Origin: a virus
Taxonomy: Duplodnaviria; Caudoviricetes
Length of the DNA: 64,000 nt
Strand: one strand, 5' to 3'
Virus record (IMG/VR): IMGVR_UViG_3300014208_000026
Span: 1 to 64,000 of that record
Positions 24,767 to 26,380 of the stretch are shown here, in pieces; position 1 is the first letter of the stretch; every line of letters begins with the position of its first letter. The translations under genes were made by a program, and so were the position numbers. Below the pieces are notes generated by a model that was given only the letters and a program-made list of their open reading frames with translations, did not search any database and was not told the origin of the DNA.

Positions 24767-26155
24767 TTAGCAACTGCGCGGCGGGGTGGATTCGGGGGAG
24801 AGGTCAAAAGCTACCATGACGTCGCCTACAGGAAGCTTGTCGACAAACACCCCAACTTCTTTGAGGCTCTGAGAAGGCCCGCAGAAGTAGTTGGCCTTGC
24901 GCAGGATAGCCCCCAACTCGGGGGATGACACAATCACCCCGTGGACCAGTTCCGGAGTCGGCTTGAACTCAGCCACGGTCTTCGGGCGGGGGGAAACCCA
25001 ACCCTTTCCTTCGACGCCGAACTTCTGACAAGCCGCTTCAATGGTCTTGCGGTTGCAGGTCTTCCGACCCAGGACTATGTCCCAAGGCTTCGGCAGAGCA
25101 CCCCACACCGCCGTGTCCGGCTCCAGCCCGCCAGAGCCATGAGCACTGTGCATGTAGGCCACGTCCGCAGCCATCAAACGCAGGGCCTTCGTCGGAGCAA
25201 AAGCATCCAGCACCGACTGCGCCCCGAGAGCAAACAGCGTGGAAATCCAGCCGTCACGGGCCTTGTTATAAGCCCCTGCCACGGAATTCCACGTCGAGCT
25301 GTCATTCCCCCGCTTCACGATCATACGCTTGAGGTCCAGGTTGTTGTTTGCCGCAGCCTTATCCAGTAGGACGGCGCACTTCTTCATCAGGTCGAACCAC
25401 AGACCTAGCATCCGGCCCCGCTGCTCTTCCGTCAGCTTTGCGATGATGCTGGGGTCCGTGTGGACGTGGGCGACAGCCAGCCAGTTCGTAGCGGGTCGGT
25501 CTTCCAGCCGAGCCAGGAGCATATCGGCGATCTGGTCGTTTGCCCGTTCCTGCTTTCCCCACGTGAACGTGGACCGCACGTTGAGTCGTGCCGTCATGTA
25601 GGCCACGAAACAGGCGGTATCCAGATCGGATTCGAACTCCGCCTTCGGCAGATACAGAGCGAGACGGGACTTGGCAACCTGGGCGAGGTCACACAACTCC
25701 ACGTTGTTCTGCCAGCGGACCAGTTTCTCTTCCATGCGAGAGAGGAGCCGAAACCTCTTGTTGTAGGCTCGATGACCCTTCGGGAGGGCAGGATCATTCA
25801 GACGGCCCTCGTGATTGAGGCGGTCTGCCTTGAAGTCGTTTCCGGTCTTGTGAAGATCCTTCGTCAGGAGATCCAGGTAAGCCCTGAGTTCTTCGGGCTC
25901 AGGCAGATCGGACTTCGGAGCGGGCACGTTCGGGAACAGGATCTTGACTACCTTGATCTGTCCATCGAGAGTCGTCTCCGCACGGCGGAACTGCGAGGGC
26001 ATGTAAGAAGAAGTACATCCGTAGGTAGCAGCCTTGTCGAGAACAGCCTTCTGGCGAAGGGTCAGGCGATCTCCGATGAGATCACGGATTGCCAGGGCCA
26101 CGTTCTCGGGCCGACGGCGTTCCTTGATGGACTGAAACAGGAACTCGATGGACAT
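24767..26155 (-). CDS. hypothetical protein, 462 aa, downstream of the tRNA-like pair
   Basis: Long ORF with GGAG RBS; starts 24 nt after the tRNA-like RNA. Confidence 0.8.
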   Translation of the reverse strand: MSIEFLFQSIKERRRPENVALAIRDLIGDRLTLRQKAVLDKAATYGCTSSYMPSQFRRAETTLDGQIKVVKILFPNVPAPKSDLPEPEELRAYLDLLTKDLHKTGNDFKADRLNHEGRLNDPALPKGHRAYNKRFRLLSRMEEKLVRWQNNVELCDLAQVAKSRLALYLPKAEFESDLDTACFVAYMTARLNVRSTFTWGKQERANDQIADMLLARLEDRPATNWLAVAHVHTDPSIIAKLTEEQRGRMLGLWFDLMKKCAVLLDKAAANNNLDLKRMIVKRGNDSSTWNSVAGAYNKARDGWISTLFALGAQSVLDAFAPTKALRLMAADVAYMHSAHGSGGLEPDTAVWGALPKPWDIVLGRKTCNRKTIEAACQKFGVEGKGWVSPRPKTVAEFKPTPELVHGVIVSSPELGAILRKANYFCGPSQSLKEVGVFVDKLPVGDVMVAFDLSPESTPPRSC

Positions 26156-26178
26156 TTTCTCTATCTCTCCTCAAATCG

Positions 26179-26254
26179 TGTTGGGGGCAGGGCTCGAACC
26201 TGCGTCCAGGCGGATGAAAGAGCCGCCTCGCACTACCAACTGGCGTTCCCCAAC
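26179..26254 (-). tRNA. non-canonical tRNA-like RNA 1, 9-nt anticodon loop CUCUUUCAU
   Basis: Acceptor GTTGGGG/CCCCAAC; D arm; stem GGCGG/CCGCC; T arm GCAGG-TTCGAGC-CCTGC; no encoded CCA. Confidence 0.8.
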
Positions 26255-26265
26255 AACAGAACAGG

Positions 26266-26341
26266 CCCCCAAGACAGGATTCGAACCATGTGTCCAGTCG
26301 GAAACCAGAGCCGACCCGCACTACCACTGGCGTACCTGGGG
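26266..26341 (-). tRNA. non-canonical tRNA-like RNA 2, 9-nt anticodon loop CUCUGGUUU
   Basis: Acceptor CCCCAGG/CTTGGGG; same D arm; stem GTCGG/CCGAC; T loop TTCGAAT; no encoded CCA. Confidence 0.8.
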
Positions 26342-26350
26342 ACAAAAAGC

Positions 26351-26380
26351 ACTATACAGTCGACGAATCGGACTTGTCAA
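26351..26380 (-). promoter_or_regulatory. sigma70 promoter TTGACA-N18-TATAGT for the tRNA-like pair
   Basis: Predicted start near 26343, at the 5' end of RNA 2. Confidence 0.75.

What the first reader, a model, noticed from the sequence alone, without database searches (positions are those of the whole stretch)
24767..26380. Unknown 462-aa protein apparently co-transcribed with the tRNA-like pair: candidate RNA-protein system
Seen: the promoter, RNA 2, RNA 1 and then this ORF 24 nt later, all on the same strand with no visible terminator. The protein is basic and helical, with motif-like segments (HRAYNKRFR, RGNDSSTWN, RLMAADV) and no catalytic motif I recognise. Inference: a ribonucleoprotein module analogous to Ro60-Y RNA, or an enzyme acting on these RNAs.
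Basis: partly seen in the sequence, partly recalled or inferred. Interest (0 to 1): 0.75.

Follow-up and report, generated by a model that had tools for sequence, protein, structure and literature searches.

The report
New protein with its own tRNA mimics
This huge phage carries a compact gene module, also found in bacteria of at least a dozen phyla, that pairs a protein of unknown fold with its own tRNA look-alikes whose anticodon loops are altered at the wobble site. The module probably takes part in the contest over cutting and repairing tRNAs.

Summary
The 462-aa ORF (minus strand, 24767-26155) follows a near-consensus promoter and two 76-nt cloverleaf RNAs with 9-nt anticodon loops.

**Linkage, both ways:**
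- All 80 homologous loci fetched from bacterial genomes carry 1-4 RNAs of the same scaffold beside the gene, on the same strand.
- Of 32 metagenomic loci found by the RNA pattern alone (with room on both sides), 30 carry the gene.

**Protein:** basic, nearly all-helical, modelled at pLDDT 95. No Pfam, PHROG, NCBIfam, PADLOC or PDB match.

**RNAs:** canonical tRNA bodies under strong purifying selection. Their loops are 6-10 nt, all starting CUC or, rarely, CAC. The loops copy real anticodon loops, 57% of them Gln, Lys or Glu, with the wobble U replaced by C or preceded by an extra C.

**Context:** the module is self-contained (about 1.6 kb) and single-copy. It lies far more often than chance beside Pnkp/Hen1, RlaP or Thg1-like tRNA-repair genes, and inside phage tRNA arrays.

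**Best reading (inferred):** a dedicated protein/tRNA-mimic system acting in anticodon-nuclease and repair conflicts. Binding, expression and activity are untested. I found no description of it in the literature I could search.

The parts
26351..26380 (-). sigma-70-type promoter (TTGACA, 18-nt spacer, TATAGT) that would start transcription 2-7 nt before RNA 2
   Evidence: 11 of 12 matches; the only site in the 2.3-kb region, shuffles give 0.6; sequence
26266..26341 (-). tRNA mimic 'RNA 2', 76 nt: cloverleaf with one bulged T-stem base and the 9-nt anticodon loop CUCUGGUUU
   Evidence: Rfam tRNA 34.8 bits; own model R1 97.1 bits; sequence
26179..26254 (-). tRNA mimic 'RNA 1', 76 nt: perfect cloverleaf with the 9-nt loop CUCUUUCAU, which is a tRNA-Glu(UUC) loop plus two extra bases
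   Evidence: Rfam tRNA 38.5 bits; MFE cloverleaf -33.7 kcal/mol, z -2.4; ARAGORN with introns allowed reads tRNA-Glu(ttc) with a 2-nt insert
26167..26172 (-). Shine-Dalgarno-like GAGGAG, 11 nt before the ATG, inside the 23-nt gap after RNA 1
   Evidence: read directly
24767..26155 (-). 462-aa basic, all-helical protein of an unannotated family, the obligate partner of the tRNA mimics
29180..30280 (-). RlaP-family nucleotidyltransferase gene (RNA-repair associated), same strand, 3 kb upstream. This is context and is not shown to belong to the module.
   Evidence: Pfam PF10127, E 1e-12. RlaP also lies next to the module in L037 and L089/L090

Best explanation
The finding is a self-contained two-part module: a basic, all-helical protein of a new family, plus one to four dedicated tRNA-mimic RNAs made from the same transcript.

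SHOWN:
- Gene and RNAs are linked in both directions across many phyla and huge phages.
- The RNAs keep a full canonical tRNA body under strong purifying selection.
- The last three pairs of the anticodon stem and the first loop bases (CGG-CUC) are constant.
- The rest of the loop is 3-7 nt and turns over at about the synonymous rate, yet keeps anticodon-loop grammar. It copies real loops, mostly Gln, Lys and Glu. The wobble U is either replaced by C (7-nt loops) or preceded by one extra C (8-nt loops). In this phage clade there are often two extra bases.
- The module sits far more often than chance next to tRNA-repair genes (Pnkp/Hen1, RlaP, Thg1-like) and inside phage tRNA arrays.

INFERRED:
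- The protein binds the constant CGG-CUC face of its own RNAs, so it does not confuse them with cellular tRNAs.
- The pair acts in the conflict over tRNA cleavage. The RNAs serve as look-alikes of the tRNAs that anticodon nucleases attack, with the scissile wobble site disabled. They would act as baits, competitive inhibitors or sentinels.
- The protein handles them as stabiliser, sensor or enzyme.
- In this phage the module would be counter-defence against host anticodon nucleases. In bacteria it would protect against ribotoxins, working alongside repair.
For: Linkage: 80 of 80 genome loci; 30 of 32 RNA-first metagenome loci; 10 viral loci.

Co-transcription: spacing figures; promoter with no terminator in the window.

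RNA structure: 98.7% of cells paired, and 18 of 20 pairs show double changes.

Rates over 40 independent pairs:
- tRNA core 0.061
- acceptor stem 0.154
- variable part of the loop 0.341
- 4-fold degenerate sites 0.428

Loop lengths in 285 RNAs: 6 nt 8, 7 nt 112, 8 nt 138, 9 nt 26, 10 nt 1.

Loop grammar:
- With an extra C after U33, 113 of 138 8-nt loops have a purine at position 37, against 76 of 138 in the other register.
- Identities are Gln 61, Lys 48 and Glu 33 of 250. By my own reckoning, 6 of the 32 U- or C-starting anticodons (19%) would be expected.
- CUCUUGGA equals the loop CUUUGGA of a phage tRNA-Gln (L087:1906-1978) plus one C.

Repair context:
- L037 reads module, Hen1, RlaP, RlaP, Pnkp.
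- L041 reads module, kinase, Thg1-like, Hen1, Pnkp.
- L058, L071, L107 and L206 also carry Pnkp and/or Hen1 nearby.
- Hen1 occurs in only 5 of 401 genomes of one phylum.
- RlaP adds 1-2 nt to anticodon-loop-cleaved tRNA halves (preprint 10.64898/2025.12.29.696909).

Phage copies lie in tRNA arrays. The protein is basic, with many invariant Arg, Lys, Trp and Asn residues.
Against: - No binding, expression or activity data exist, and no RNA run holds the locus.
- More than 95% of modules are not next to repair genes, and four other Hen1-bearing genomes of one phylum lack the module within about 10 kb of Hen1.
- No anticodon nuclease gene was identified as a partner.
- The loop centre evolves at about the neutral rate, so part of it may simply be unconstrained.
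- The protein has enzyme-like conservation (three near-invariant Asp, invariant Asn), which a pure bait role does not explain.
- The phage record shows no RNA ligase, although it is only 49% complete.
- The link between Gln/Lys/Glu and anticodon nucleases rests on textbook knowledge (PrrC, gamma-toxin, PaT, PARIS), not on a test here.
Confidence: 0.45

Rival explanations
1. Toxin with a pseudo-substrate RNA antitoxin. The protein is itself a tRNA-directed enzyme (nuclease or other modifier). The mimics, with their disabled wobble site, occupy its active site and hold it in check until infection or stress. Adjacent repair genes allow recovery.
For: The protein has enzyme-like invariant Asp, Asn, Arg and Lys residues. 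The RNAs copy substrate-type anticodon loops changed exactly at the wobble site. The module is a compact, single-copy, horizontally spread two-part unit. It is linked to RNA-repair operons. In 36 of 121 loci, RNase P cutting at the RNA 5' end would remove the mRNA's stop codon, which favours RNA over protein.
Against: tRNA-shaped RNAs are usually stable, whereas antitoxins are usually labile. The gene order is mostly protein first, unlike ToxIN-type systems. No nuclease fold or motif was recognised. A lytic huge phage keeping such a toxin needs a further explanation.
Confidence: 0.2
2. Genuine decoding tRNAs. They would be nuclease-resistant spare tRNAs, or suppressor or frameshift tRNAs read on the ribosome, and the protein would be a dedicated maturation, modification or charging factor.
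For: The tRNA body is fully canonical. 39% of loops are 7 nt with a C34 anticodon and mostly a purine at position 37 (89 of 112). An insertion 5' of the anticodon is tolerated in yeast mitochondrial tRNA-Thr1 (PMC3113583, listed). Some identity features follow the loop: U11:A24 in 21 of 33 Glu-like RNAs against 1 of 61 Gln-like, and U1:A72 in 33 of 61 Gln-like. Phage copies sit in tRNA arrays.
Against: 61% of loops are not 7 nt. The discriminator base does not follow the anticodon identity: Gln-like RNAs have T 23, G 18, C 10, A 10, and Lys-like have G 21, T 13, A 10. Loop identity flips between close relatives. The all-helical protein resembles no synthetase or known tRNA-modifying fold. The large ORFs of the window are intact, so no pervasive frame breaks need such tRNAs. 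The two broken family genes carry TAA or TGA, unrelated to their RNAs' loops.
Confidence: 0.15
3. General RNA-surveillance particle of the Ro60/Y RNA type. The protein scaffolds the tRNA-like RNA to recruit nucleases or repair enzymes to damaged RNAs in general, with no special tie to anticodon nucleases.
For: The syntax matches rsr-yrlA beside rtcBA: a scaffold protein plus a cognate tRNA-like RNA beside RNA-repair genes. The centre of the loop is close to neutral.
Against: The loops keep anticodon grammar and are enriched for Gln, Lys and Glu, which a mere scaffold would not need. No TROVE, vWA or other known domain was found.
Confidence: 0.12
4. Small mobile element. The protein is a new kind of transposase or recombinase, and the tRNA-like RNAs are its guide RNAs or element ends.
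For: Related genomes share only a discrete block of about 1.6 kb with unrelated flanks. Inverted repeats of about 14 bp flank the unit in some Bacteroidota. A language-model feature search pointed to Tn3 transposases (score 0.94).
Against: The module is single-copy in all six genomes or records searched. No inverted repeats rise above shuffled controls in most loci. Profile comparison with a Tn3 DDE domain gives probability 0.1%. The model is all-helical, with no RNase H-like sheet. The RNA may lie before or after the gene. A variable part of 3-7 nt is too short to guide.
Confidence: 0.05

Closest known systems
Ro60 (Rsr)/Y RNA modules, e.g. rsr-yrlBA beside rtcBA in Salmonella (from my own knowledge)
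   Same: A dedicated RNA-binding protein is encoded with its own non-coding RNA that mimics tRNA. The pair recurs beside RNA-repair genes and is spread by lateral transfer.
   Different: No TROVE or vWA domain; the protein fold matches nothing solved. The RNA is a complete cloverleaf with an anticodon arm, not a Y RNA stem plus a tRNA-like module. Binding is not shown here.
Pnkp/Hen1 (with RlaP or Thg1-like) bacterial tRNA repair systems (PMC4411300, PMC3675462, preprint 10.64898/2025.12.29.696909)
   Same: They share a neighbourhood in at least six loci. Both concern the tRNA anticodon loop. RlaP produces loops lengthened by 1-2 nt, the same size range seen in the mimics' genes.
   Different: The module encodes no kinase, phosphatase, ligase, methylase or nucleotidyltransferase domain. 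It mostly occurs without these genes.
Phage answers to anticodon nucleases: T4 Pnk/Rnl1 against PrrC, and T5 tRNA-Lys variants against PARIS (from my own knowledge)
   Same: These are phage-borne, tRNA-centred functions. They focus on Lys, Glu and Gln type anticodon loops and lie in or near phage tRNA arrays.
   Different: Those use real decoding tRNAs or repair enzymes. Here most loops are 8-9 nt and come with an obligate unknown protein. The module is also common in bacterial chromosomes.
Type III toxin-antitoxin systems (ToxIN)
   Same: Both are compact protein plus structured-RNA pairs, co-transcribed and horizontally mobile, found in bacteria and phages.
   Different: The ToxN fold and tandem RNA repeats placed before the toxin gene are absent. 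The RNAs here are tRNA cloverleaves, usually placed after the gene.
tRNAs with enlarged anticodon loops: frameshift suppressors, and yeast mitochondrial tRNA-Thr1 (PMC3113583)
   Same: Both have a cloverleaf with an 8-nt loop. In tRNA-Thr1 the extra base lies on the 5' side of the anticodon.
   Different: Those are single, stable decoders with fixed identity. Here loop length (6-10 nt) and identity vary between close relatives, and a partner protein is always present.
SPFH/Band-7 module with 'a novel tRNA-like molecule' in RNA-repair systems (Burroughs and Aravind, NAR 2016; recalled from the abstract, the paper could not be read here)
   Same: It fills the same slot in repair-system syntax: a cofactor protein plus a tRNA-like RNA.
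   Different: No Band-7 family reached two members among 126 flanking proteins. Whether the RNAs are related could not be checked.

Membership tests
Canonical decoding tRNA | Cloverleaf with conserved D-loop, T-loop and variable-loop nucleotides | tested here: met
   Rfam tRNA 38.5 and 34.8 bits. 98.7% of cells paired with covariation in 18 of 20 pairs. The core evolves at 0.061 against 0.428 at 4-fold sites.
Canonical decoding tRNA | Seven-nucleotide anticodon loop | tested here: not met
   The window's RNAs have 9-nt loops. In the family, 173 of 285 loops are not 7 nt. ARAGORN finds no tRNA in the window.
Canonical decoding tRNA | Acceptor and discriminator identity elements that match the anticodon | tested here: not met
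   The discriminator base is scattered within each anticodon class. Only partial trends appear (U11:A24 with Glu-like loops, U1:A72 with Gln-like loops).
Canonical decoding tRNA | Aminoacylation and use on the ribosome | not testable with these tools
   Needs acid gels, periodate sequencing or ribosome profiling.
Ro60/TROVE with Y RNA | TROVE (HEAT-repeat ring) plus vWA domain in the protein | tested here: not met
   No Pfam family at E up to 0.1. No PDB sequence hit. No fold hit.
Ro60/TROVE with Y RNA | Protein-RNA binding | not testable with these tools
   Only genomic linkage is shown.
Type III toxin-antitoxin (ToxIN-like) | ToxN/AbiQ-type endoribonuclease fold and tandem RNA repeats upstream of the toxin | tested here: inconclusive
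   No Pfam, PADLOC or fold match. The RNAs are cloverleaves, usually downstream. Toxicity was not tested.
Tn3-family DDE transposase | DDE_Tnp_Tn3 catalytic domain | tested here: not met
   hhalign of A4 against a bona fide PF01526 domain gives probability 0.1%. The model is all-helical. The gene is single-copy.
HEPN anticodon nucleases (PrrC, RloC) | HEPN domain with the R-x(4-6)-H motif | tested here: inconclusive
   No HEPN family in Pfam or PADLOC scans. By eye I saw no conserved R-x(4-6)-H among the near-invariant columns. No structural comparison was aimed at HEPN.
Pnkp/Hen1/RlaP RNA-repair enzymes | Kinase, phosphatase, ligase, methyltransferase or Pol-beta nucleotidyltransferase domain | tested here: not met
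   None found in the 462-aa protein. These domains are in neighbouring genes in some loci.

The most novel reading that the evidence does not exclude
A previously undescribed class of RNA-protein conflict system. Genomes and huge phages encode full tRNA look-alikes of the favourite targets of anticodon nucleases (Gln, Lys, Glu and others). The wobble site is deliberately disabled by a C substitution or insertion. A dedicated protein of a new fold uses these RNAs to trap, sense or counter tRNA-cutting toxins. This would be a third arm of tRNA-centred immunity, beside cleavage and repair.
Probability: 0.3. Interest if true: 0.88.

Novelty: categorically new. Interest (0 to 1): 0.82.

Why it matters
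- A family with over a thousand members in at least a dozen bacterial phyla and in huge phages has stayed 'hypothetical', and its RNAs are annotated as odd or ordinary tRNAs, or missed.
- If the protein and the mimics work together, this adds a new protein fold that reads a tRNA anticodon arm.
- It would also add a new use of tRNA mimicry in bacteria and phages, and a new component to the tRNA cleavage and repair arms race.
- It warns annotators that tRNA-Gln(CUG), Glu(CUC) or Lys(CUU) calls next to this gene, as in Gemmata, may not be decoding tRNAs.
- The scaffold tolerates 6-10-nt loops and comes with a private partner protein, which could interest people who engineer orthogonal tRNA systems.

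Tried and rejected
- **tRNA finders.** ARAGORN with default settings and Rfam at gathering threshold on the whole window both report nothing. This is a filter effect, because the small-region Rfam run scores both RNAs above threshold.
- **Protein families.** Pfam, PHROGs, NCBIfam and PADLOC give no family. PDB by sequence gives nothing.
- **Fold searches, whole model.** Foldseek PDB has no hit at E up to 0.001. VIA-wide gives a best Z of 6.5, on generic helical bundles. The ESM Atlas by shape gives TM by query of at most 0.26. Five of the ten Atlas rows were MnmE-type helical domains at low TM; I note this only as a weak lead.
- **Fold searches, C-terminal half folded alone.** Best Z 3.5, no Foldseek hit. 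Residues 1-57 and 157-240 were barely tested by fold.
- **Tn3 lead.** It came from language-model features and was rejected by hhalign.
- **Conserved neighbour genes.** None among 80 loci. No enriched Pfam family among 126 flanking proteins.
- **Terminal inverted repeats.** Above shuffles only in a few Bacteroidota.
- **Self-decoding idea.** The in-frame stops in L046 (TAA) and L060 (TGA at a conserved Trp) are unrelated to the local RNA loops.
- **Expression.** No RNA holder is listed for the locus; the two DNA holders are groundwater metagenomes.
- **Own phage record.** No RtcB, no Rnl-type ligase and no canonical tRNA, but the record is only 49% complete.
- **Literature.** Searches on enlarged anticodon loops, tRNA-like defence RNAs, RNA repair, and tRNA mimics or decoys found no description. 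The 2026 preprint on three bacterial tRNA-mimic families concerns other RNAs. Burroughs and Aravind 2016 could not be opened.
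Full report
**What is in the window.**
The ORF lies on the minus strand, 24767-26155 (462 aa, ATG). Read 5' to 3' on that strand, the features are:
- the stop codon of a DUF3228 gene;
- a near-consensus promoter, TTGACA-N18-TATAGT, at 26380-26351 (the only such site in 2.3 kb);
- RNA 2 (26341-26266) and, 11 nt later, RNA 1 (26254-26179);
- a 23-nt gap holding GAGGAG;
- the ATG.

No terminator-like site lies between promoter and ORF. Both RNAs pass Rfam's tRNA threshold when the small region is searched (38.5 and 34.8 bits against 29). ARAGORN and the whole-window Rfam run miss them, because both anticodon loops are 9 nt: CUCUGGUUU and CUCUUUCAU. The window is part of a 257-kb virus record from groundwater. 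It carries chaperonin, intein-bearing RNR and SNF2 genes, RecA, RecD2 and methylases. The record has no canonical tRNA gene and no other RNA of this kind.

**The protein.**
It matches nothing in Pfam, PHROGs, NCBIfam or PADLOC, nor in the PDB by sequence. It does have more than 1,177 homologues, all called hypothetical. One is Gemmata obscuriglobus GobsT_21500. At 50% identity the family forms 530 clusters.

The family is basic, with a median pI of 9.25. Its near-invariant blocks include:
- GHRAYNKRFR;
- RRGNDSSTWN..AGA.NKAR;
- KALRLMAADV;
- LPKPW;
- PTPELVHGV.

With 112 sequences AlphaFold2 gives pLDDT 95.4 and pTM 0.93, almost all helices. No fold search found a relative:
- Foldseek against the PDB had no hit at E up to 0.001.
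- VIA against 48,161 chains gave a best Z of 6.5, on generic bundles.
- The Atlas gave TM by query of at most 0.26.
- The conserved C-terminal half folded alone gave Z of at most 3.5.

A language-model hint of Tn3 transposases failed a profile test, with probability 0.1%.

I built a covariance model from the window's two RNAs. It finds 1-4 RNAs of the same scaffold next to the gene, on the same strand, in all 80 loci fetched from one-genome-per-species bacteria. These loci come from Planctomycetota, Bacteroidota, Myxococcota, Acidobacteriota, Gemmatimonadota, Armatimonadota, Chloroflexota, Deinococcota, Cyanobacteriota, Actinomycetota, Verrucomicrobiota and Pseudomonadota. The model also finds such RNAs in 10 IMG/VR loci.

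For the reverse test I scanned metagenomes with a pattern taken only from the RNA. Of 32 loci with at least 1.5 kb on both sides, 30 carry the gene beside the RNA: 24 are gene-first and 6 RNA-first.

The spacing supports co-transcription:
- In gene-first loci the first RNA begins within 60 nt of the stop codon in 115 of 121 cases.
- In 36 of those it begins at or before the stop codon.
- In RNA-first loci the ATG follows the last RNA by 7-48 nt in 13 of 14 cases.

The RNA-first order marks a well-supported clade (SH-aLRT 100) that contains the window and several huge-phage contigs. The nearest relative is on a 435-kb contig, at 55% identity.

**The module stands alone.**
- No neighbouring gene is conserved.
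- Related genomes share only a block of about 1.6 kb.
- The gene is single-copy in the six genomes or records searched.
- Inverted repeats flank it only in some Bacteroidota.

**The RNAs.**
The cloverleaf is strongly supported: 98.7% of cells pair, and 18 of 20 pairs show compensatory changes. All the nucleotides that build the tRNA elbow are present. Over 40 independent pairs of relatives the p-distances are:
- 0.061 for the core;
- 0.154 for the acceptor stem;
- 0.341 for the variable part of the loop;
- 0.428 for 4-fold degenerate sites.

So the body is under strong constraint and the loop centre turns over at nearly the neutral rate.

The loops are not random, however. All begin CUC (rarely CAC), after a constant CGG/CCG stem end. 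Lengths are 6 nt (8), 7 nt (112), 8 nt (138), 9 nt (26) and 10 nt (1). If 8-nt loops are read as CU, an extra C, then a normal anticodon, a purine falls at position 37 in 113 of 138. The other register gives 76 of 138. Read this way:
- CUC-UUG-GA is the tRNA-Gln(UUG) loop. A canonical phage tRNA-Gln in L087 has CUUUGGA.
- CUC-UUC-AC is the tRNA-Glu loop.
- CUC-UUU-AA is the tRNA-Lys loop.
- The common 7-nt loops are the C34 versions of these: CU-CUG-GA, CU-CUC-AC and CU-CUU-AA.

Gln, Lys and Glu make up 142 of 250 loops (57%). I would expect 19% (my own reckoning: 6 of the 32 U- or C-starting anticodons). Arg, Pro and Thr follow. The window's RNA 1 is a Glu(UUC) loop with two extra bases. Discriminator bases do not follow the loop identity, which argues against regular charging.

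**Context that points to function.**
Six loci place the module beside the Pnkp/Hen1 tRNA-repair system, in at least three gene orders:
- L037: module, Hen1, RlaP, RlaP, Pnkp.
- L041: module, kinase, Thg1-like, Hen1, Pnkp.
- L071 and L206: Hen1, Pnkp, module.
- L058 and L107 also carry Pnkp nearby.

In the four genomes checked, the sole Hen1 match lies beside the module or, by my reading, on the broken contig end that would adjoin it. Hen1 is rare, present in 5 of 401 genomes of one phylum. Chance adjacency within 10 kb would therefore be expected about 0.01 times in 200 loci (my estimate), against six observed. The link is optional, because four other Hen1-bearing genomes of that phylum lack the module within about 10 kb of Hen1.

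RlaP lies 3 kb from the module in the window and near it in L037 and L089/L090. Thg1-like genes lie near it in L041 and in the phage loci L085 and L180. Several phage copies sit inside tRNA arrays. A recent preprint shows that RlaP adds one or two nucleotides to the 5' half of a tRNA cut in the anticodon loop.

**Interpretation.**
A dedicated protein/tRNA-mimic module is shown. What follows is inferred.
- The mimics keep everything that makes a tRNA a tRNA.
- They carry a private mark (CGG-CUC) that probably lets the protein tell them from cellular tRNAs.
- They imitate, with the wobble site disabled, the loops of the tRNAs known from the literature as the usual targets of anticodon nucleases: PrrC, gamma-toxin, PaT and PARIS.

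Together with the repair-gene and tRNA-array neighbourhoods, this makes a role in the tRNA cleavage and repair conflict the best-supported reading. I put it at about 0.45, with bait, inhibitor or sentinel as the likeliest sub-mechanism. The rivals are:
- a toxin with a pseudo-substrate RNA antitoxin (0.2);
- real spare or recoding tRNAs with a dedicated factor (0.15);
- a general Ro60-like surveillance particle (0.12);
- a mobile element (0.05).

**Novelty.**
Neither the protein family nor the RNA class appears in the family libraries, Rfam or the literature I could search. There is one caveat. Burroughs and Aravind (2016) mention 'a novel tRNA-like molecule' that goes with SPFH/Band-7 proteins in repair systems. 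I could not read that paper. No Band-7 family reached two members among the flanking proteins scanned here.

Another first-stage note of this scan recorded the two RNAs on this same window. Its description agrees with what I found.

Noticed in passing
window 29180-30280 (-): RlaP-family (PF10127) nucleotidyltransferase gene 3 kb upstream of the module on the same strand. No RtcB or Rnl-type ligase was found in the 257-kb record, which is 49% complete.
   Followed up: partly
window 26388-27059 (-): The gene directly upstream of the promoter encodes a DUF3228 protein (E 7e-8). It is not conserved next to the module in other loci.
   Followed up: partly
window 18238-22854 (+) and 37099-41970 (+): An SNF2-type helicase with a LAGLIDADG intein, and a class II ribonucleotide reductase with at least one intein-splicing domain, typical of huge phages.
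   Followed up: no
window 33072-34496 (+): A TnpB/Cas12f-like ORF (TNB domain, E 4e-12) with no transposase gene seen nearby.
   Followed up: no
gene-first loci, e.g. L005:7383, L029:7311-7320, L068:2650-2659: In 36 of 121 loci the tRNA mimic's 5' end coincides with or precedes the ORF's stop codon (offsets -1 and -10 are recurrent). RNase P processing would therefore leave a stop-less mRNA. This may be a built-in control of protein level.
   Followed up: partly
L009:5844-5959, 7562-7677, 10859-10974; L012:8061-8175: A palindrome-ended repeat of about 125 nt (MITE/REP-like) flanks the module on both sides in a Fluviicola MAG and recurs nearby. The module's 14-bp inverted repeats abut it.
   Followed up: partly
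L003, L007, L026, L045, L052, L066 (Myxococcota and one Eremiobacterota MAG): In this clade the mimics have an unusual T-loop (GUGCAAA in place of UUCGAGC). In the Myxococcota members they also show Pro-like features (C1:G72, A73).
   Followed up: no
L111:1899-1970 and L138:3315-3387: Two RNAs of the family have no partner gene within reach. L138 lies on the same 440-kb contig as a complete module (L168), so extra orphan copies exist in some huge phages.
   Followed up: no
L046 (Janthinobacterium MAG) and L060 (Acidobacteriota MAG): The family gene is interrupted by TAA or TGA (the latter at a conserved Trp). These are probably pseudogenes or assembly errors.
   Followed up: yes
L091:9348-9496 (Gemmata obscuriglobus chromosome): The two mimics here have 7-nt loops that ARAGORN reads as tRNA-Gln(CUG) and tRNA-Glu(CUC) in the near-identical G. 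algarum locus L001, so genome annotations probably list them as ordinary tRNAs. The module sits among housekeeping genes (sigma factor, FtsY-like, pseudouridine synthase, S21).
   Followed up: partly
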